Source of the DNA: Nanobdellota archaeon
GTDB taxonomy: Archaea > Nanobdellota > Nanobdellia > Parvarchaeales > Parvarchaeaceae
Assembly (NCBI GenBank): GCA_021799085.1
Contig: JAJZBD010000005.1
Coordinates: forward strand, 4,498 to 68,497
DNA length: 64,000 nucleotides
Direction of reading: 5' to 3'
The position numbers and the translations under genes were made by a program. The notes below the pieces were generated by a model. The model saw only the letters and a program-made list of their open reading frames with translations, had not been told where the DNA came from and ran no database searches. Shown piece by piece: positions 55,452 through 61,430 of the stretch (positions within the stretch are counted from its first letter, which is position 1; each line of letters starts with the position of its first letter).

Positions 55452-56726
55452 TTGTTTCTTAGAATAATAATGAATATAGACTTAACGTTTGAATACATAG
55501 TCCTTTCGATAGCATTGGGCGCAGTATTCGGCCTTGAAAATGAATACAGAATGCAAAAAGGCGTAAAGATATTCATGGGCTTCAGAACATCAATATTCAT
55601 TGCCCTTTTGGGTGACATCTTTGCCATTTTCTATGAGATTTTTGGATACCCTTCCATTATAATAACAGGATTTGCAGTTATGATTGCCTTTTCAAGCGCA
55701 ATCTACTTTGAAAAGAATGCAAAGACAAGGAATCCGGGCGCAACGACGTATATAAGCTCGATGATACTTTTTTTGTCGGGAATGCTTGTGGGGTTAGGTT
55801 ACTATGAATATGCAATAGTCATAGTTATACTAATAACTGCAATAAGCTTCTACAAAAGAGAATTCCTTTATTTCATAACATCAATAAAGAAAAGCGAGAT
55901 AATAGCAGCTATAAACTTATTGATAATATCCTTTGTTATACTTCCGCTGCTTCCAAACACATATATGGGGCCCTATGGCTTCTTTAATCCCTTCCAGTTC
56001 TGGCTTCTTGTGGCATTAGTAGGAACCGTCTTTTTCTTGCAGTATGCTCTGCTTAGAGTATCAAAATCCGGCCTGCTCGTTTCAACTGTAATAGGCAGTT
56101 TAATAACAGGCACAACTATAACCTTTGCTCTCATAAATTTAGGAAACAGGTTCAGAAAACTTGGAAAAGCGGTTGTTTACAATGTTGTAGTAGCAGCAAA
56201 CATACCTATGATTCTTATCCAGGCCCTCCTTATAATATATATAGTGACACTCTCATCAAAAGTCATTTATTATATGATACCCGTTACTGCAGTTTCAATA
56301 ATAAGCCTTTTAATGATTTATCTGATTGGCAAAGGTGAAATAAACAAGAAGGCAGAAAGGCCAAACAATCCATTTCCTCTTGTAAAAACACTTGAATTCG
56401 CTGCCGTCTTCTTCGTAGTTCTTTCAGTTTCAAGAATAGTTGCAGTCGTAGCGCCGAATCTGCTTATAGTTGACATGTTTTTGTCTGCGCTTGCAAATAT
56501 AGTGGGTGCTGCATTTGCGTTGGGAACACTTTTATTGGATCACCAGATAAGTGCAAGCTACACTGCAATGCTTTTAGGGGTATCAATATTTGCGGCAATA
56601 ATAGAAAAAGGATTTATAGGGTTGATATCAAGGGACAAAAGCACAAGAAAGGGAATATTTGGTTATTCTATGCTTGTAGGCCTCATCCTTTTGATAACCC
56701 TATTTGTGCAATACCATGGAATTTAA
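55452..56726 (+). CDS. MgtC-family / DUF4010 membrane protein
   Basis: 424 aa, ~11 TM; N-terminal LSIALGAVFGLENEY resembles MgtC GxxxGxERE region. Confidence 0.5.
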   Translation: MFLRIIMNIDLTFEYIVLSIALGAVFGLENEYRMQKGVKIFMGFRTSIFIALLGDIFAIFYEIFGYPSIIITGFAVMIAFSSAIYFEKNAKTRNPGATTYISSMILFLSGMLVGLGYYEYAIVIVILITAISFYKREFLYFITSIKKSEIIAAINLLIISFVILPLLPNTYMGPYGFFNPFQFWLLVALVGTVFFLQYALLRVSKSGLLVSTVIGSLITGTTITFALINLGNRFRKLGKAVVYNVVVAANIPMILIQALLIIYIVTLSSKVIYYMIPVTAVSIISLLMIYLIGKGEINKKAERPNNPFPLVKTLEFAAVFFVVLSVSRIVAVVAPNLLIVDMFLSALANIVGAAFALGTLLLDHQISASYTAMLLGVSIFAAIIEKGFIGLISRDKSTRKGIFGYSMLVGLILLITLFVQYHGI

Positions 56727-58149
56727 ATTTGACAAGGAAAGGCTGGAAAAGCTCGAAAGGCTGAAAAAGGAAGGAATAGAGCCATACGGCAGCAGATTTG
56801 ATGCCGAGATGCATTCCATTGATATAAAAGAAAACTTTGAAAAACTTGAGGGAAAAGAAACTACAGTAGCAGGAAGGATAATGGCGAAGAGAGACCATGG
56901 GAAGATAAAATTCATAGACCTGCAGGATGAGGAAGGCAGCATACAAATATACTTTTCAGAAAAACACGTTGATGAAGAGTCAATAAAAATTGCCGAGGAA
57001 CTTGATACTGGGGATATAATAGGAGTAAAGGGCACAATCGTTAAAACAAAGACAAATGAAATATCAGTTGATGCAAAAAAAATAACCATGCTTAGCAAAT
57101 CTCTACTGCCAATGCCTTCCAGATGGTATGGGCTTGAGGACACGGAAAAAAGGTACAGGAAAAGATACCTTGATTTCATAATAAACAGAGAATCACTGGA
57201 AAAGATAAAAAAAGGGAGCGTAATGCTTTCCAAGGTAAGAGAAATAATGGAGAAAAGGGGATTTACTGAAGTCACAGTACCAATACTTCAACCGATACCT
57301 GGTGGTGCAAATGCAAAGCCCTTTATAACCCATTACAATTCATTAGACAGGGATTTTTACCTTAAGATAGCATCAGAGCTATACCTTAAACGTCTTCTTG
57401 TGGGGGGTTTTGAAAGGGTATTTGACATAAGCAAGAACTTTAGAAATGAAGGTGTAGATACCAGGCACAATCCAGAATTCATAATGCTGGAGGTATACCA
57501 AGCATATGGTGATTTAAGTACAATGCTTGAGCTTACTGAAGAAATAGTAAAAGAATCCATTTATGCAGCAAATAAAACTTATAAAGTCAAATTTGGAGAA
57601 AAAATGATAGACCTATCAAAATTCCAGATAAAAACAATGGAAGAAATGGTAAAGGAAAACACTGGAATAAACAGCGAAGAAGAGATTATAAAGAGGGGGA
57701 AGCAGCTTGACAGCAAGGTAAGTTCATACGGCGAAGCCATAAATGCCATATTTGAGGCAAAGATATCAGACAACATAATGGATCCAATATTTGTCACAAG
57801 GTTCCCGATTGAGGTATCGCCTCTCGCAAAGAAAACATCCGATGATCCAAGGTTTGTATACAGATTTGAACTCTACATAGCGGGCATGGAGATAGCGAAT
57901 GCCTTTTCGGAATTAAACGACCCCATAGACCAGATAAGCAGATTTGAGGAAGAAGCTAGAAGAAAGAACAGGGGAATTGATGAAACACAAGAGTTTGATA
58001 TGGATTTCATAGAAGCGATGAGTTATGGAATGCCTCCAGCAGGCGGTGTAGGCATAGGGATAGATAGACTGCAAATGATAGGAACCGACTCTAAAAGCAT
58101 AAAGGAAGTTATACCTTTCCCACAACTTAGAACATTTGAAGATCAATAA
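56704..58149 (+). CDS. lysS: lysyl-tRNA synthetase, class II
   Basis: N-terminal OB anticodon-binding domain; class II motifs FRNEG and GGVGIGIDRLQM. Confidence 0.85.
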   Translation: MCNTMEFKFDKERLEKLERLKKEGIEPYGSRFDAEMHSIDIKENFEKLEGKETTVAGRIMAKRDHGKIKFIDLQDEEGSIQIYFSEKHVDEESIKIAEELDTGDIIGVKGTIVKTKTNEISVDAKKITMLSKSLLPMPSRWYGLEDTEKRYRKRYLDFIINRESLEKIKKGSVMLSKVREIMEKRGFTEVTVPILQPIPGGANAKPFITHYNSLDRDFYLKIASELYLKRLLVGGFERVFDISKNFRNEGVDTRHNPEFIMLEVYQAYGDLSTMLELTEEIVKESIYAANKTYKVKFGEKMIDLSKFQIKTMEEMVKENTGINSEEEIIKRGKQLDSKVSSYGEAINAIFEAKISDNIMDPIFVTRFPIEVSPLAKKTSDDPRFVYRFELYIAGMEIANAFSELNDPIDQISRFEEEARRKNRGIDETQEFDMDFIEAMSYGMPPAGGVGIGIDRLQMIGTDSKSIKEVIPFPQLRTFEDQ

Positions 58150-58464: not shown

Positions 58465-58791
58465 TTATCTATTGTGGCTAATTAAGTAAAAAACCCAGTT
58501 TTTACCTGGTTCATTCTCTTTACTCTCGTAAGAAGCACTCATAGATTTTATCTCATTATACAGACCTAGGTAGTTTATTATCTTAACAGTACCGCTTATC
58601 GTTTTAAGGTTATCTAAAGTAAGGATTGATTCTGACTTACTTTCCAGAATCTTACTTGCAAGATCCAAAGCTGCCTTCTCGCCGAATTTATTGTAGGTGG
58701 AGTAAAGCTCCTTTTCTAGGTTTACAGAGTAATCCGCTGCATCCAATGACTTTATTGCGTCCACTATTTTTTCCAAAGAATTCTTTTCCAT
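58465..58791 (-). CDS. hypothetical protein
   Basis: 108 aa, helical, no motif. Confidence 0.3.
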   Translation of the reverse strand: MEKNSLEKIVDAIKSLDAADYSVNLEKELYSTYNKFGEKAALDLASKILESKSESILTLDNLKTISGTVKIINYLGLYNEIKSMSASYESKENEPGKNWVFYLISHNR

Positions 58792-58857: not shown

Positions 58858-58956
58858 TGGCCTGGCCGAGATTTGGACTCGGGACCCCTGCTTTTCCTAA
58901 AATGTTGGAGCATACTCATATAAGAGCAGTGCTCTACCGGGCTAAGCTACCAGGCC
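58858..58956 (-). tRNA. tRNA-Ile, anticodon read as UAU, with ~25-nt intron (approx 58894..58918)
   Basis: Acceptor GGCCTGG/CCAGGCC, T-arm CCGAG-TCCAAAT-CTCGG. Anticodon stem CTGCT...AGCAG separated by 32 nt; every splice choice I tried gives TAT at 34-36. Confidence 0.6.
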
Positions 58957-59006: not shown

Positions 59007-59480
59007 TTAAATGTATTCTTTAACTGCACTGCCAGCAATGGCTTTCACAGACAGCTTTTTCACAGAAAATTCAAGTGCTTCTCCAAGAACCGGAACTTCA
59101 TAGAATCCTGCTTCTGTGCCCCTGAAACCATAACTTTCTTCAAGCTCTTTCTTGATTTTATTGACCTTATCTGCCTGATAACCATAGTTCAACAGTATCT
59201 CAATGTTTCCCTTTCCGCTGCTCTTGTAATCCCTAAAAGCGCCTTTAATAATCGAATAAACCACTCTTCTAAGCTTGTTGTCGTTTTCAAAGTACTTTGG
59301 ATTTATGCAATATTTTACTGAACTGCCAAAAGAAAACTTGGCGTATTTTCTATTGATACTTACCGAGTCATTGCCGCTTCTTTTAGCGGCAGTTAGCAGC
59401 AGATCGTATAGAGAATTGTCCAACCCCATGATTGCACTTCCACCTGAATTCATTAAAAGATCCTTTAATCGCTGTTCCAT
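59007..59480 (-). CDS. hypothetical protein (third gene of RHH/PAPS-reductase-like operon)
   Basis: 157 aa, no motif; start 1 nt after upstream stop. Confidence 0.3.
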   Translation of the reverse strand: MEQRLKDLLMNSGGSAIMGLDNSLYDLLLTAAKRSGNDSVSINRKYAKFSFGSSVKYCINPKYFENDNKLRRVVYSIIKGAFRDYKSSGKGNIEILLNYGYQADKVNKIKKELEESYGFRGTEAGFYEVPVLGEALEFSVKKLSVKAIAGSAVKEYI

Positions 59481-59481
59481 C

Positions 59482-60312
59482 TTACATGTAGCCGAAAAGC
59501 CTGAGTTTTTCCATTACTCCTTCCTTGTCCTGTGATCTGCCTGCTCTTTCTTTTGTATGCTCTAAGTCCTGTTCCCATGCAGGCAAATCGCTTGTCTTCT
59601 TTGAATCCAATTTACCATCTATTGACCTATATCCGAGCTTGTACAAAGGATGCATTGGCAATTTGTACTTGAAAATATATCCCCAAACGTTCCTTTCAGT
59701 AAAAGGCAGTATCGGCTGTACCCTTACATGATCCGGATGCGTTCTCGGGCTTATGAAAACCTCCATAGACCTTGCTTCATTTTCATCCCACCTAACACCA
59801 GTAAATAGCGCATCGAACCTGTACTTTTCGATTGCCATGTTCATCGCAACTGTTTTCAATAAATGGTTTCCGACCTCTGTTTCTAAGCTGTAATCAAACT
59901 CTTCTCCGTTGAATCCTATTCTTCTAGCTTCATCCTGGTTAACCTTGTTAAGACTGCTGAGCTTTATTTTGTTGTCCTTCCCTACATTTTTTATAACGTC
60001 CTCATTCTTTGCATATACCATCTTAAAGCCCCATTCATTGCTTATGTCTTCAAGCATCTTCATGGTTTCATCGTAATGCTGTCCGTGGTCTATAAATAAT
60101 GCAGGAGGCAACTGCATCCCCAAATCCTTACATGCCCGTCTTACAAGGTCCAAAACCACTGTGCTGTCTTTTCCAGCACTCCAAACAACCGTAGGCCGGT
60201 TGTATCTTTTCAATGCATCCTTTATTACTATAAGCGCAATTTCTTCCTTTGCTTCTAAACTCAACCCACCTTCTATTCTTTGTTTTTTTACAGAATATTG
60301 TTCATTTTCCAT
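59482..60312 (-). CDS. PAPS-reductase-family PP-loop protein (Cys-less variant)
   Basis: VVWSAGKDSTVVLDLV PP-loop; ...HPLYKLGYRSIDG corresponds to the PAPS-reductase PLxxWxxxDVWxYI/GYxSIGC region but lacks the Cys; ends ...MEKLRLFGYM. Confidence 0.55.
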   Translation of the reverse strand: MENEQYSVKKQRIEGGLSLEAKEEIALIVIKDALKRYNRPTVVWSAGKDSTVVLDLVRRACKDLGMQLPPALFIDHGQHYDETMKMLEDISNEWGFKMVYAKNEDVIKNVGKDNKIKLSSLNKVNQDEARRIGFNGEEFDYSLETEVGNHLLKTVAMNMAIEKYRFDALFTGVRWDENEARSMEVFISPRTHPDHVRVQPILPFTERNVWGYIFKYKLPMHPLYKLGYRSIDGKLDSKKTSDLPAWEQDLEHTKERAGRSQDKEGVMEKLRLFGYM

Positions 60313-60321
60313 GTTTACCTC

Positions 60322-60543
60322 CTACATATAACCCAGTTTCCTGAGCTTATCCTCAAGATCAAGCACCCGCTCGTCTTTTTCTTCCCTTCTCTTTTTTTCT
60401 TCGTTGCTTTCCGAGACCAGCTCTCTAAGCAGGTATTCTACAAAGCTTGAAAGCGATGTGAAACCCGTTTTCTCTATAAGCTTTTTGGCCTTATCAGCCA
60501 AAGGCTTAGGTATCGAAACCGTTGTAAATTTTTGTTCATCCAT
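60322..60543 (-). CDS. ribbon-helix-helix (CopG/Arc-like) DNA-binding protein
   Basis: 73 aa; TTVSIPKPLADKAKKLIEKTGFTSLSSFVEYLLRELV = beta-strand + two helices; ends ...LEDKLRKLGYM. Confidence 0.55.
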   Translation of the reverse strand: MDEQKFTTVSIPKPLADKAKKLIEKTGFTSLSSFVEYLLRELVSESNEEKKRREEKDERVLDLEDKLRKLGYM

Positions 60544-60546
60544 AAT

Positions 60547-60574
60547 TACTAATAATTATATATAATTATTAGTA
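60547..60574. promoter_or_regulatory. 28-bp perfect palindrome TACTAATAATTATATATAATTATTAGTA immediately upstream of the RHH gene start; candidate operator overlapping TATA box
   Basis: Read directly from sequence; reverse complement identical; centre TATATATA 4-30 nt upstream of the RHH ATG (60543). Confidence 0.45.
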
Positions 60575-60615
60575 TAAATACTTTTCCTTTTAAAAAATAG
60601 CGAAATAAAAAATGA

Positions 60616-60945
60616 TTACATTGAAAACAGAATAAAACCTAGAACAATCAGTGGCAATGCAATTGCATCGCCGTAGAACCCTGAGATGTAAGTACCTTGT
60701 ATAAACGAAGATGTAACCAATGCCGGATTCAAAACATACTGAACCAATGTAGCTATATAGCTGGCTGAAATAGCGAGCATTCCTGCAAATATAATAATCA
60801 AACCAATTACCTTCTTCTTCGGATTTGCAAAAAATAGAACCAAAAACCGTTCCATCTTTCGCATGTTAAAATAGAACATAAAGAAGGTAAGTACCCACGC
60901 GGCTGCAATTAAAAGCGCAATAGGAAGCGGAATGCTGAAACTCAT
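60616..60945 (-). CDS. small hypothetical membrane protein
   Basis: 109 aa, 3 TM helices; start overlaps (ATGA) stop of upstream gene. Confidence 0.3.
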   Translation of the reverse strand: MSFSIPLPIALLIAAAWVLTFFMFYFNMRKMERFLVLFFANPKKKVIGLIIIFAGMLAISASYIATLVQYVLNPALVTSSFIQGTYISGFYGDAIALPLIVLGFILFSM

Positions 60946-61430
60946 GAGAACCTCCGAAAGTAATTAAAGTAAAGATCATATGAAAAACCCGCCACCAAAA
61001 GAGATAAAATAGCTAGAAGCCAAAAGGCTGCAACTAAACCATACGCTAGAAATATCTGTGTAACCGCATTTACTGCAAAAACCACCGTAGCCAAGAAGCC
61101 GAATAGAAGCAGAATCTCTATTCTCTTAATAAAAACCTTAGACCGCCCTTTATTCAGAAAAAAACCGGCCCATGGAGCCCTATCCTTTGCATGCTTAGCA
61201 TTGACAAGTAATATCAATGCTATAAAAATAACTGTCACTAATGCGCCTATCAAAGTTACTACCCTTGCAGTTATCAATGCAATTTCAACGAAGTATGTAA
61301 AACTGACGATGGTTATTGGCTTGAATACAACTGAGAAAGACGCGCCTATATCTCCGCCTATAGCTATGACCGCAATTATGCTTACTATTATAAGAACAAT
61401 CAAATTAAGCTTTGTTTGATTAAACTGCAT
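60942..61430 (-). CDS. hypothetical membrane protein
   Basis: 162 aa, 4 TM helices. Confidence 0.3.
   Translation of the reverse strand: MQFNQTKLNLIVLIIVSIIAVIAIGGDIGASFSVVFKPITIVSFTYFVEIALITARVVTLIGALVTVIFIALILLVNAKHAKDRAPWAGFFLNKGRSKVFIKRIEILLLFGFLATVVFAVNAVTQIFLAYGLVAAFWLLAILSLLVAGFSYDLYFNYFRRFS

What the first reader, a model, noticed from the sequence alone, without database searches (positions are those of the whole stretch)
59007..60574. tRNA-Ile-adjacent operon: RHH regulator + Cys-less PAPS-reductase-family protein + unknown 157-aa protein
Three tightly spaced minus-strand genes (60322..60543 RHH, 59482..60312 PP-loop/PAPS-reductase-like, 59007..59480 unknown) lie in a short variable-looking islet between core genes lysS and trpS, directly next to an intron-containing tRNA-Ile. 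The RHH and enzyme genes are separated by 9 nt and preceded by a perfect palindrome, suggesting an autoregulated module. PAPS-reductase-like PP-loop domains recur in DNA-modification and defence systems (DndC-, SspD-, IbrA-type) and in sulfur-transfer or tRNA-modification enzymes. Here the protein is short (276 aa) and has lost the conserved Cys residues. The function is not inferable from sequence alone and may be a distinct, undescribed module.
Basis: partly seen in the sequence, partly recalled or inferred. Interest (0 to 1): 0.65.

Follow-up and report, generated by a model that had tools for sequence, protein, structure and literature searches.

The report
Archaeal sulfate-activation operon with own repressor
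The three genes are real, but they are not a mobile defence islet: they are a conserved chromosomal operon in which a small DNA-binding repressor controls a CysD-type enzyme that most likely activates sulfate (makes APS) so that cell-surface sugars can be sulfated.

Summary
All three minus-strand genes, the 9-nt and 1-nt spacers, the 28-nt palindrome and the intron-containing tRNA are present.

The window comes from an ARMAN-4-like Parvarchaeum, an acidophilic DPANN archaeon. The 276-aa protein is not a degenerate PAPS reductase. It belongs to a highly conserved archaeal CysD-like family with an SxGKDS PP-loop and a CysD-type C-terminus; dN/dS is about 0.02.

Outside Parvarchaeum this family lies next to, or is fused with, sulfatase/phosphodiesterase-fold proteins in glycan-biosynthesis clusters.

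Orthologues of the RHH protein carry the same TAATTA-N4-TAATTA operator. In Thermoproteales and Bathyarchaeota they sit directly upstream of ATP sulfurylase–phosphodiesterase–APS kinase operons.

I therefore read the pair as an autorepressed sulfate-adenylylation module that works without CysN and feeds glycan sulfation. This is inferred, not shown.

A syntenic Parvarchaeota relative has a sulfatase-like gene in the third slot. In this lineage the slot holds p157, a fast-evolving, clade-restricted gene of unknown function. The sulfatase-like orthologue sits elsewhere, in a glycan cluster.

One feature is unexplained: the RHH protein, the enzyme and some archaeal APS kinases share an invariant C-terminal L-x-x-L-G-Y-M/L tail.

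The defence, DNA-modification and islet readings are not supported.

The parts
60573..60585 (-). Archaeal promoter element. In gene orientation it reads AAAAG-TATTTATA (BRE-like plus TATA box). The TATA box ends 29 nt upstream of the RHH ATG, so the 5' UTR is very short or absent.
   Evidence: Sequence. The string AAAGTATTTATA is conserved at the same distance upstream of the RHH gene in most Parvarchaeota loci. Its role as a promoter is inferred from the archaeal TATA/BRE consensus (my own knowledge), not measured.
60543..60574 (.). Putative RHH operator. It consists of three TAATTA boxes at a 10-bp period (60543-48, 60553-58, 60563-68) inside a 28-nt perfect palindrome (60547-60574). It lies between the TATA box and the start codon, and the first box overlaps the A of the ATG.
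   Evidence: The motif is unique in the window (2 matches, 0.04 expected). In 33 of 97 fetched loci it is found only immediately upstream of the RHH gene. These include Thermoproteales (L094/95), Bathyarchaeota (L096/97) and Nanohalarchaeota (L081).
60322..60543 (-). A 73-aa ribbon-helix-helix protein. It has an N-terminal beta-alpha-alpha DNA-binding core (FTTVSIPKPL...TGFTSLSSFVEYLLRE), an acidic/basic linker and an invariant C-terminal tail, KLRKLGYM. I read it as the autorepressor of the operon.
   Evidence: Searches give RHH/NikR-type hits. One search finds 61 homologues. In one search the only invariant columns are M1, T8, L67, L70, G71 and Y72. dN/dS is 0.05-0.16. The gene is adjacent to the enzyme gene in 21 of 25 Parvarchaeota-like species loci, and 3 of the remaining 4 lack upstream sequence.
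59482..60312 (-). A 276-aa CysD-like PP-loop enzyme of the PAPS_reduct fold. The PP-loop is W44-SAGKDS-50, the R174-W-D-E-N...R181...E184 motif is present, and the C-terminus is ERAGRSQDKEGVMEKLRLFGYM. It is the proposed sulfate adenylyltransferase, forming APS without CysN.
   Evidence: AF2 gives pLDDT 88.8. The fold matches APS/PAPS reductase, FAD synthase and CysD about equally. dN/dS is 0.02-0.03.
59007..59480 (-). p157, a 157-aa protein restricted to the Parvarchaeum clade. It is translationally coupled to the enzyme gene (1-nt gap). It occupies the slot that holds a sulfatase-like gene in a syntenic relative. Its function is unknown.

Best explanation
The locus is an autorepressed sulfate-activation operon of an ARMAN-4-like Parvarchaeum.

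The 276-aa protein is a stand-alone CysD-type PP-loop adenylyltransferase with no CysN partner. It most likely makes adenosine 5'-phosphosulfate (APS) from ATP and sulfate. The activated sulfate is then used by alkaline-phosphatase-fold, 'sulfatase-like' enzymes with a Thr nucleophile to sulfate cell-surface glycans. In ARMAN-4-type genomes that partner is encoded elsewhere, in a glycan-biosynthesis cluster.

The 73-aa RHH protein binds the three TAATTA boxes that lie between the TATA box and its own start codon. By doing so it represses the RHH-enzyme-p157 transcript.

p157 is a lineage-specific, co-translated accessory gene of unknown role. It occupies the slot held by the sulfatase-like gene in a syntenic relative (L098).

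Shown here: gene structure, family membership at fold and motif level, operator conservation, gene neighbourhoods and fusions, and selection.

Inferred: sulfate as the substrate, sulfation as the destination, repression as the regulatory logic, and whether APS or PAPS is the donor.
For: 1. CysD-like identity.
- The top NCBIfam hits are the three CysD models, and the top PDB sequence hit is CysD 1zun.
- The PP-loop is the ATP-using SxGKDS form, and the R-x-D-E...R...E motif is present.
- The C-terminal ER.GR..D....ME.L...GY[MF] aligns with CysD (domain 4).

2. Link to alkaline-phosphatase-fold partners.
- In 80 species-representative loci, the gene lies within 2.5 kb of an alkaline-phosphatase-superfamily gene (PF00884 or PF01663) in 34 loci and is fused to one in 4.
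- There are two fusion architectures, each with a different class of partner domain: sulfatase-like::CysD-like in Thermoplasmata (L068/70/71) and PDE-like::CysD-like in Nanohalalkaliarchaeum (L079).
- The neighbouring genes are glycosyltransferases, a flippase, epimerases and NDP-sugar enzymes.

3. Link to sulfate activation through the RHH protein.
- RHH orthologues are about 50% identical to the window protein, have the same tail and, in L094-L097, the same operator. They lie directly upstream of Sat-PDE-APS kinase in Thermoproteales and Bathyarchaeota, and upstream of Sat in a third contig, L099.
- The Sat gene is bona fide (538 bits against a cut-off of 387).
- The PDE in those operons is homologous to the PDE domain fused to CysD-like in L079 (E=1e-10 to 1e-12).
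- Sat and CysD-like therefore occupy the same regulatory and operonic slot, which is non-orthologous displacement.

4. The syntenic Parvarchaeota locus L098 reads trpS-...-RHH-CysD-like-sulfatase-like-...-lysS.

5. The ARMAN-4 sulfatase-like orthologue (EEZ93119.1) sits between GT4 and GT1 genes, next to a UDP-sugar dehydrogenase, epimerases and an NTP-transferase.

6. Precedent: the sulfatase-like proteins Agl30 and Agl31 of Halobacterium salinarum sulfate uronic acids of the N-glycan (PMC11980604).

7. The operator is unique in the window, lies between the TATA box and the ATG, and is conserved across phyla.

8. Very strong purifying selection acts on the enzyme.
Against: - There is no biochemical evidence for any member of this family.
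- The protein scores below every curated CysD cut-off (111.5 against 195).
- Canonical CysD needs the CysN GTPase, but no EF-Tu/CysN-like ORF occurs in the window or in any of the 102 loci. APS synthesis is thermodynamically uphill without such coupling.
- No APS kinase, Sat or sulfate transporter is linked to the CysD-like gene.
- The fold search does not separate CysD from APS/PAPS reductases or eukaryote-type FMN adenylyltransferase.
- The sulfatase-like partners have T-x-P-S-H instead of the sulfatase C-x-P-x-R motif. This is the usual signature of phosphoryl-transferring rather than sulfuryl-transferring members of the superfamily.
- In this window the partner gene is absent.
- The operator is not found in the ARMAN-4 glycan cluster.
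- Sulfated glycans have not been reported for ARMAN, as far as I know.
Confidence: 0.6

Rival explanations
1. The enzyme is a PP-loop adenylyltransferase for something other than sulfate, for example a phosphorylated sugar, lipid or cofactor, as in eukaryote-type FMN adenylyltransferase. The alkaline-phosphatase-fold partner, with its Thr nucleophile, would then transfer a phospho-group onto glycans or lipids, as LtaS and EptA do. On this view the module is a phospho-modification system, not a sulfation system.
For: The partners carry T-x-P-S-H, typical of phosphoryl transferases, and give weak LtaS, YejM and PehA hits. FAD synthase structures match the model as well as CysD does. The protein scores below the CysD cut-offs. 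No CysN is present.
Against: The same RHH protein and operator control bona fide Sat (plus APS kinase) operons that contain the homologous PDE. The C-terminal ER.GR...GY[FM] and R.DE...R...E motifs are CysD-specific features. Sulfatase-fold proteins are documented sulfotransferases in an archaeon (PMC11980604).
Confidence: 0.18
2. The enzyme activates sulfate, but for assimilation (cysteine and methionine synthesis) rather than for sulfation. The RHH protein would then be a sulfur-status regulator.
For: CysD-type and Sat-type enzymes are classically assimilatory (PMC6286981). The Sat-PDE-APSK operons make PAPS, which can also feed PAPS reductase.
Against: No APS/PAPS reductase or sulfite reductase is linked in any of the loci whose called genes were listed with Pfam families. 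The constant partners are alkaline-phosphatase-fold proteins and glycan genes, including fusions. DPANN genomes are small and biosynthetically poor (my own knowledge).
Confidence: 0.1
3. This is the first reader's leaning: a defence or DNA/RNA-modification module of the DndC, SspD, BrxP or IbrA type, or a tRNA-modification enzyme, carried on a variable islet next to a tRNA gene.
Against: The hits cover only the generic PP-loop domain. No Dnd, Ssp or BREX partners are present. There is no integrase, no direct repeat and no GC anomaly. The RHH-enzyme pair is syntenic across Parvarchaeota and under very strong purifying selection. Neighbourhoods elsewhere concern sulfate and glycans.
Confidence: 0.02
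4. The RHH protein is the antitoxin of a toxin-antitoxin pair, and the downstream gene or genes are the toxin.
For: There are weak CcdA (18.7 bits) and Arc-like repressor hits. The gene is small, tightly coupled to the next gene and preceded by a palindromic operator.
Against: The hits are below cut-off. The partner is a 276-aa metabolic enzyme conserved at 60-80% identity across phyla. Orthologous RHH proteins precede ATP sulfurylase.
Confidence: 0.01

Closest known systems
CysD, the catalytic subunit of the bacterial CysDN (or NodPQ) GTP-coupled ATP sulfurylase (PDB 1ZUN; NCBIfam TIGR02039/PRK05253)
   Same: It shares the PAPS_reduct/PP-loop fold, the SxGKDS loop, the R.DE...R...E motif and the C-terminal ER.GR...GY[F/M] tail. 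CysD gives the best sequence matches. The proposed chemistry is the same: ATP + sulfate -> APS + PPi.
   Different: It scores far below the CysD cut-offs. It is about 25-50 aa shorter. No CysN GTPase is encoded nearby in any locus. Its partners are alkaline-phosphatase-fold proteins and an RHH regulator. Its distribution is archaeal (DPANN, Thermoplasmata, Nitrososphaeria, Thermoprotei).
RHH-Sat-phosphodiesterase-APS kinase operons of Thermoproteales and Bathyarchaeota
   Same: The RHH family is orthologous (about 50% identity), with the same L..LGY tail and, in L094-L097, the same TAATTA-N4-TAATTA operator. These operons also contain a homologous alkaline-phosphatase-fold PDE.
   Different: Sulfate is activated by the unrelated homo-oligomeric ATP sulfurylase, and an APS kinase is present, so PAPS is the product. 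In the window's type the CysD-like enzyme replaces Sat and no APS kinase is linked.
Agl30 (VNG1056C) and Agl31 (VNG1057C), sulfatase-like N-glycan sulfotransferases of Halobacterium salinarum (PMC11980604)
   Same: They are alkaline-phosphatase/sulfatase-fold proteins encoded in glycosylation clusters and act as sulfotransferases on uronic acids. The ARMAN-4 sulfatase-like gene likewise lies among GT genes next to a UDP-sugar dehydrogenase.
   Different: I could not test direct sequence relatedness to the partners found here, because I had no sequences for them. That paper contains no mention of a sulfate donor or of a CysD-like gene (0 hits for the terms searched). These proteins are partners of the enzyme, not homologues of anything in the window.
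Arc/Mnt/CopG/NikR-type ribbon-helix-helix autorepressors
   Same: The protein is small, has an N-terminal beta-alpha-alpha core, and has a palindromic or repeated operator overlapping its own promoter. Its profile hits the NikR RHH domain.
   Different: It falls below the Pfam RHH_1 cut-off. It has a distinctive invariant C-terminal L..LGY[MLI] tail that is also found on the enzyme it precedes. No effector domain is present.
PAPS/APS reductases (CysH) and DndC/BrxP-type PAPS-reductase domains
   Same: They share the fold.
   Different: There is no catalytic C-terminal Cys. The PP-loop is intact and ATP-type rather than degenerate. The protein scores below the CysH cut-offs (69.8 against 154). 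No defence partners are present.

Membership tests
CysD (sulfate adenylyltransferase subunit 2) | Score at or above the curated family cut-off (NCBIfam PRK05253, TIGR02039, PRK12563) | tested here: not met
   111.5 bits against a cut-off of 195; 83.9 against 396.6; 86.1 against 413.
CysD (sulfate adenylyltransferase subunit 2) | ATP-type PP-loop (SxGKDS) in a PAPS_reduct fold | tested here: met
   PF01507 at E=7e-32. W44-S-A-G-K-D-S50 is invariant in 41 homologues apart from the x position (A46, which is A, G or T). The AF2 model has pLDDT 88.8.
CysD (sulfate adenylyltransferase subunit 2) | CysD-type C-terminal segment (ER.GR ... GY[F]) | tested here: met
   phmmer aligns residues 226-275 to the C-terminus of 1zun_A (TSERQGRVID...MEEKKRQGY), but this stretch is not significant on its own (2.2 bits). 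Over the whole protein the 1zun match has E=1.1e-14. E255, R256, G258, R259, G274, Y275 and M276 are invariant.
CysD (sulfate adenylyltransferase subunit 2) | Partner GTPase CysN/NodQ encoded alongside | tested here: not met
   phmmer with EF-Tu finds no ORF at E<=1e-4 in the window or in the 102 loci.
CysD (sulfate adenylyltransferase subunit 2) | Catalyses ATP + sulfate -> APS + PPi | not testable with these tools
   This is inferred only from homology and from the same RHH-controlled slot being occupied by Sat in other archaea.
PAPS/APS reductase (CysH) | Catalytic Cys in a C-terminal ECGLH-type tail; score above the family cut-off | tested here: not met
   The C-terminus is RLFGYM. The only Cys is C61 and it is not conserved. 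The score is 69.8 bits against a cut-off of 154.
DndC / SspD / BrxP defence PP-loop proteins | Full-length match and the cognate partner genes (DndABDE, Ssp, BREX) | tested here: not met
   BrxP matches only residues 31-105 (profile positions 122-200 of 779). DndC gives E=0.003-0.01 over about 35 aa. No such partner genes appear among the ORFs and called genes around the locus.
Eukaryote-type FMN adenylyltransferase (FAD synthase PAPS domain) | Flavin-binding motifs and a role in FAD synthesis | not tested
   Only fold-level and weak sequence similarity is seen (E=2e-5 to 8e-3; Foldseek about 1e-12, the same as CysD). The gene context gives no support for this role.
Ribbon-helix-helix (CopG/Arc/MetJ/NikR) DNA-binding proteins | RHH domain recognised by profile | tested here: inconclusive
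   RHH_1 scores 17.1 bits against a cut-off of 20.5. CcdA, DUF6364, NikR and CdrS are all below cut-off. The family profile hits the NikR RHH domains at E=0.003. The beta-alpha-alpha pattern and the palindromic operator fit an RHH protein.
Ribbon-helix-helix (CopG/Arc/MetJ/NikR) DNA-binding proteins | Binds an inverted or tandem repeat operator at its own promoter | not testable with these tools
   An operator candidate is conserved upstream of RHH orthologues in Parvarchaeota, Thermoproteales and Bathyarchaeota, and in one Nanohalarchaeota locus. Binding has not been measured.
Formylglycine sulfatases (this test concerns the partner gene found in relatives) | C/S-x-P-x-R formylglycine motif | tested here: not met
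   The partners have an invariant T50-x-P52-S53-H54 at that position. They score below all NCBIfam sulfatase cut-offs (99 against 481).

The most novel reading that the evidence does not exclude
Archaea may possess a previously unrecognised sulfation pathway with three features. First, a CysD-type enzyme activates sulfate without a dedicated CysN GTPase. Second, it hands APS directly, without an APS kinase and hence without PAPS, to alkaline-phosphatase-fold, Thr-nucleophile sulfotransferases. This would explain why the two are adjacent or fused. Third, the invariant C-terminal L-x-x-L-G-Y-[MLI] tail is a common docking peptide. It is shared by the CysD-like enzyme, by bacterial CysD, by some archaeal APS kinases and by the RHH repressor. 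Through it the repressor would physically sense the state of the sulfate-activating enzyme, giving an enzyme-coupled feedback switch.
Probability: 0.15. Interest if true: 0.8.

Novelty: new variant of a known kind. Interest (0 to 1): 0.5.

Why it matters
Archaeal glycan sulfotransferases of the sulfatase fold have only just been identified, in Halobacterium salinarum. The paper describing them does not mention the sulfate donor or where it comes from.

This locus points to a conserved CysD-like enzyme as the likely supplier of activated sulfate. The enzyme has no CysN partner and is found in acidophilic and halophilic archaea: Parvarchaeota, Thermoplasmata, Conexivisphaera, Thermocladium and Nanohaloarchaea. 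The locus also points to a dedicated RHH repressor, with a defined operator, that controls either type of ATP sulfurylase in DPANN archaea, Thermoproteales and Bathyarchaeota.

This gives directly testable reagents. The enzyme family occurs in cultured Oxyplasma meridianum and Thermocladium modestius, and the binding site is 16 bp long.

It also corrects a frequent annotation ('PAPS reductase family protein') that wrongly suggests assimilatory sulfate reduction in DPANN metabolic reconstructions.

For the scan itself, the finding should be re-filed from 'possible defence islet' to 'conserved metabolic operon with an uncharacterised accessory gene'.

Tried and rejected
- Defence reading. PADLOC and PHROGs gave only generic PAPS-reductase domain hits.
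- Toxin-antitoxin reading. The CcdA hit is below cut-off and the partner is a conserved enzyme.
- Mobile islet. There is no GC anomaly and synteny is conserved.
- p157 as a decayed remnant of the sulfatase-like gene. hhalign gave probability 0.9% and E=0.06, and tblastn of sulfatase-like proteins against the window gave only E>0.01 noise.
- The p157 hit P0192 is a spurious match to a repeat protein.
- Fold search to separate CysD, CysH and FMNAT. All three match at about E=1e-12.
- Search for a Sat, APS kinase, alkaline-phosphatase-fold or CysN gene in the window. None was found.
- Search for further operator copies as a sign of a regulon. None was found in the window, even with 1 mismatch, and none in the ARMAN-4 glycan cluster.
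- A PDB search using only the tail peptide returned designed proteins, which is noise.
- Literature searches for this enzyme family, RHH family or operon type returned nothing relevant.
- ARAGORN with intron mode calls the neighbouring tRNA Ser(TGA), using a non-canonical intron position. I rejected this. The tRNA has a short variable arm, and a canonical 37/38 intron gives a bulge-helix-bulge (worked out by hand) and anticodon UAU.
Full report
**1. The observation**

The first gap is 9 nt and contains GGAGGT. The second gap is 1 nt.

Rfam finds a tRNA at 58858-58956(-), scoring 53 bits, with a 25/26-nt insertion in the anticodon loop. ARAGORN in default mode misses it. With a canonical 37/38 intron the anticodon is UAU (Ile). 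I could draw a bulge-helix-bulge for that cut by hand. ARAGORN -i instead proposes Ser(TGA) with a shifted intron. I reject that because the variable arm is short.

The flanking genes are true lysS (class II) and trpS.

The palindrome is real: it is a 28-nt perfect palindrome at 60547-60574.

All three genes have homologues and are under purifying selection. Against 11 related genomes, dN/dS is 0.02-0.03 for the enzyme, 0.05-0.16 for the RHH protein and 0.20-0.30 for p157.

**2. Source organism**

The enzyme is 96-98% identical to proteins from 'Candidatus Parvarchaeum acidiphilum ARMAN-4' and related acid-mine-drainage MAGs. The same contig structure recurs in several ENA assemblies.

**3. 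The enzyme**

- Pfam gives PAPS_reduct at E=7e-32.
- The best NCBIfam models are the three CysD models, all below their cut-offs. CysH models come next.
- The best PDB sequence hit is CysD 1zun, followed by a plant APS reductase-type protein (4bwv, deposited as PAPS reductase / APR-B) and eukaryotic FAD synthase.
- The AF2 model is confident (pLDDT 88.8). Foldseek, however, cannot separate APS/PAPS reductases, FAD synthase and CysD, which all match at about E=1e-12.
- The motifs do separate them. The PP-loop is the intact ATP-type W-S-A-G-K-D-S. The R174-W-D-E-N-x-A-R181-x-x-E184 block and the C-terminal ER-A-GR...ME-KLR-x-F-GYM are invariant in 41 homologues. phmmer aligns the C-terminal segment onto the C-terminus of CysD 1zun.
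- There is no C-terminal catalytic Cys. The single Cys, C61, is not conserved.

'Cys-less PAPS reductase' is therefore better described as 'CysD-like'.

The family is conserved at 60-80% identity between Parvarchaeota, Thermoplasmata and Nitrososphaerota/Conexivisphaera. It reaches Thermocladium and Nanohaloarchaea at 40-48%.

**4. Gene neighbourhoods of the enzyme**

I examined 80 species-representative loci with my own ORF and HMM analysis.

| Group | Loci | RHH gene | Alkaline-phosphatase-superfamily gene (PF00884 Sulfatase / PF01663 Phosphodiest) |
|---|---|---|---|
| Parvarchaeota-like | 25 | Directly upstream in 21; within 1.3 kb in 1; 3 lack upstream sequence | Within 2.5 kb in 1 |
| Thermoplasmata | 26 | None | Within 2.5 kb in 18; fused in 3 |
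| Nitrososphaeria/Conexivisphaera | 9 | None | Within 2.5 kb in 4 |
| Thermoprotei | 2 | None | Within 2.5 kb in 2 |
| Nanohaloarchaea-type | 16 | Directly upstream in 1; within 1.3 kb in 6 | Within 2.5 kb in 9; fused in 1 |

The remaining 2 of the 80 loci are labelled as bacterial MAGs and have neither an RHH gene nor a partner gene.

The fusions are of two kinds, each involving a different class of partner domain:
- sulfatase-like::CysD-like (L068, L070, L071; about 730 aa);
- PDE-like::CysD-like (L079; 570 aa).

The surrounding genes are glycosyltransferases, a Wzx-like flippase, epimerases/dehydratases, sugar nucleotidyltransferases, a formyltransferase-like gene, and DsrE and TauE.

No EF-Tu/CysN-like GTPase, Sat or APS kinase occurs in any CysD-like locus.

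**5. The RHH protein and its operator**

The RHH family has 61 detectable members. In a 30-sequence alignment spanning four phyla, the only invariant columns are M1, T8 and the tail residues L67, L70, G71 and Y72.

Orthologues at about 50% identity from Thermoproteales (P0166), Bathyarchaeota (P0171) and an unassigned metagenome contig (P0158) were traced to their contigs. In all three cases the next gene is ATP sulfurylase. The Sat assignment scores 538 bits against a cut-off of 387 for the L094 gene, the only one scored against NCBIfam. In the two complete cases the order is RHH-Sat-Phosphodiest-APS kinase, with a further sulfatase-like gene beside it. That PDE is homologous to the PDE domain fused to CysD-like in L079 (E=1e-10 to 1e-12).

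Upstream of the window's RHH gene lie three TAATTA boxes 10 bp apart, between a conserved AAAGTATTTATA (BRE/TATA) element and the ATG. TAATTANNNNTAATTA is unique in the 64 kb (0.04 expected). In the 97 loci held at that point, it occurs in 33 and always immediately upstream of the RHH gene. This includes the GC-richer Bathyarchaeota and Thermoproteales Sat operons and one Nanohalarchaeota locus.

This is strong comparative evidence for three points: the RHH protein binds this site, it autoregulates, and the CysD-like gene and Sat occupy the same regulated slot. The last point is non-orthologous displacement.

**6. History of the third slot**

A Parvarchaeota contig (L098) has the same backbone as the window: thermosome-LSM-HAD-trpS-...-lysS-MgtC-GT4-Hel308. 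There the operon reads RHH-CysD-like-sulfatase-like (442 aa).

In the window's clade that slot holds p157. In the clade at 80% identity it holds a 78-aa membrane ORF.

The window contains no alkaline-phosphatase-fold, Sat or APS kinase gene. ARMAN-4 does, however, encode the sulfatase-like orthologue (EEZ93119.1). It lies in a cluster with two epimerase/dehydratases, a UDP-sugar dehydrogenase, an NTP-transferase, a GT4 and a GT1. That cluster has no TAATTA operator.

**7. Mechanism proposed**

The operon makes a repressor and a sulfate-adenylylating enzyme. The APS supplies sulfatase-fold transferases that decorate glycans. The direct precedent for such transferases is Agl30 and Agl31 of Halobacterium salinarum. 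These are sulfatase-like proteins required for sulfation of iduronic and glucuronic acid in the N-glycan, and they are sufficient to sulfate a Haloferax glycan (PMC11980604). That paper contains no mention of a sulfate donor.

The recurrent adjacency and fusion with the alkaline-phosphatase-fold protein would make sense as a way to pull the unfavourable APS-forming reaction by immediate consumption. The same logic applies to Sat-APS kinase fusions (my own knowledge). This step is inferred.

Several weak points must be stated:
- There is no biochemistry for this family.
- No CysN is present.
- The scores are below the CysD cut-offs.
- The partners have T-x-P-S-H instead of the sulfatase C-x-P-x-R motif. 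This is more typical of phosphoryl-transfer members, so a phospho-modification system is the main rival.

**8. The unexplained tail**

- The RHH protein ends ...EDKLRKLGYM and the enzyme ends ...MEKLRLFGYM.
- hhalign of the two family profiles aligns exactly these 20 C-terminal residues (E=9.7e-5, probability 58%).
- Bacterial CysD ends ...KKRQGY(F).
- Two archaeal-type APS kinases in PDB end the same way: 7yq0 ends ...KKLMELGYL and the Methanothermococcus thermolithotrophicus enzyme 8a8h ends ...AQKLGYL. A bacterial Sat/APSK (3cr8) has ...LEHEGYL near its end.
- Additional RHH paralogues with the tail flank the operons in Thermoproteales and Nanohaloarchaea.
- Among 5364 ORFs from the window and all loci, the motif hits 136. 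In the loci I listed, every hit is an RHH or CysD-like protein.
- AF2 models the enzyme tail as a low-confidence terminal helix.

The tail could be a simple oligomerisation helix, like the one that tetramerises Mnt, allowing RHH dimers to span three boxes. Alternatively it could be a docking peptide common to components of sulfate-activating complexes. I could not test either idea.

**9. Comparison and novelty**

At fold and motif level the enzyme is a CysD relative, but it fails two defining CysD features: the family score and the CysN partner. I therefore file it as 'works like CysD' (inferred) and not as CysD.

It is not a CysH, because it has no catalytic Cys. It is not a DndC- or BrxP-type defence protein, because it has only a domain-level hit and no partners.

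I found no paper describing this family, the RHH family, the operator or the operon type. Archaeal CysD in the literature is the canonical CysDN (PMC6286981).

I rate it a new variant of a known kind. It is moderately interesting for archaeal glycobiology and sulfur metabolism. It also serves as an annotation correction for DPANN metabolic reconstructions.

The specific suggestion that prompted the finding, a defence or modification islet, is not supported.

Noticed in passing
window 58858-58956 (-): This tRNA has a 25-nt intron. A canonical 37/38 splice gives anticodon UAU (tRNA-Ile reading AUA), which is unusual for archaea; most use CAU plus agmatidine (my own knowledge). ARAGORN in default mode misses the gene. 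ARAGORN -i calls it Ser(TGA) using a shifted intron. A TATA-like TTATAAATA lies about 35 nt upstream of the tRNA, right after the p157 stop codon.
   Followed up: partly
PDB chains 7yq0_A and 8a8h_A (C-termini); window 59482-59510 and 60322-60350: Archaeal-type APS kinases end in ...KKLMELGYL and ...AQKLGYL. This is the same L..LGY[LM] tail as on the RHH repressor and the CysD-like enzyme, and it resembles the ...QGYF end of bacterial CysD. It may be a shared docking or oligomerisation motif among sulfate-activation proteins.
   Followed up: partly
L068 3585-5786, L070 2375-4540, L071 3528-5807 (Thermoplasmata); L079 4158-5870 (Nanohalalkaliarchaeum): There are two kinds of gene fusion between an alkaline-phosphatase-fold domain (sulfatase-like or PDE-like) and the CysD-like domain.
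   Followed up: yes
L098 4920-7329: This Parvarchaeota contig has the same trpS...lysS synteny as the window but carries RHH-CysD-like-sulfatase-like. This shows what sits in the slot that p157 occupies in the window lineage.
   Followed up: yes
Alignment A4 (sulfatase-like partners, e.g. P0201 residues 45-60): The 'sulfatase' partners have an invariant T-x-P-S-H where formylglycine sulfatases have C/S-x-P-x-R. They are therefore Thr-nucleophile members of the alkaline phosphatase superfamily, not classical sulfatases.
   Followed up: partly
window 60616-60945 and 60942-61430 (-): Two overlapping small multi-pass membrane ORFs (109 and 162 aa) lie directly upstream of the operon promoter. They have no family hit and are conserved only in the closest relatives. 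In the clade at 80% identity other small ORFs take their place.
   Followed up: partly
window 58465-58791 (-): A 108-aa ORF lies beyond the tRNA. It has no family hit and is conserved but fast-diverging within the Parvarchaeum clade (phmmer E from 1e-66 down to 1e-5 across loci).
   Followed up: no
window 56704-58149 (+): The lysS gene here is the bacterial-type class II LysRS (TIGR00499, 548 bits). Most archaea use class I LysRS (my own knowledge).
   Followed up: no
L094 7255-7467; L081 647-862; L089 617-829; L084 2618-2842; L091 327-542: Second, more divergent RHH paralogues with the same acidic linker and [KR]L[KR].LGY[IL] tail lie a few kb from the sulfate-activation genes in Thermoproteales and Nanohaloarchaea. 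By eye, L089 7864-8604 also looks like an RHH-like N-terminus fused to a sugar nucleotidyltransferase.
   Followed up: no
L050 4953-5851: In one Parvarchaeota MAG the CysD-like gene is split into 86-aa and 213-aa ORFs. This is either a frameshift pseudogene or an assembly error.
   Followed up: no
L058 and L082: Two MAGs labelled as bacteria ('bacterium KM4348-15' and 'Bacteroidota SCS3bin.55') carry close homologues of this otherwise archaeal gene on short contigs. The likely explanations are binning contamination or a transfer.
   Followed up: no
L009 9346-10473: In Thermoplasmata the CysD-like-sulfatase-like-GT cluster is followed by a DsrE-family gene and a TauE/SafE-family anion permease gene. 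The permease is a possible sulfur-oxyanion transporter.
   Followed up: no
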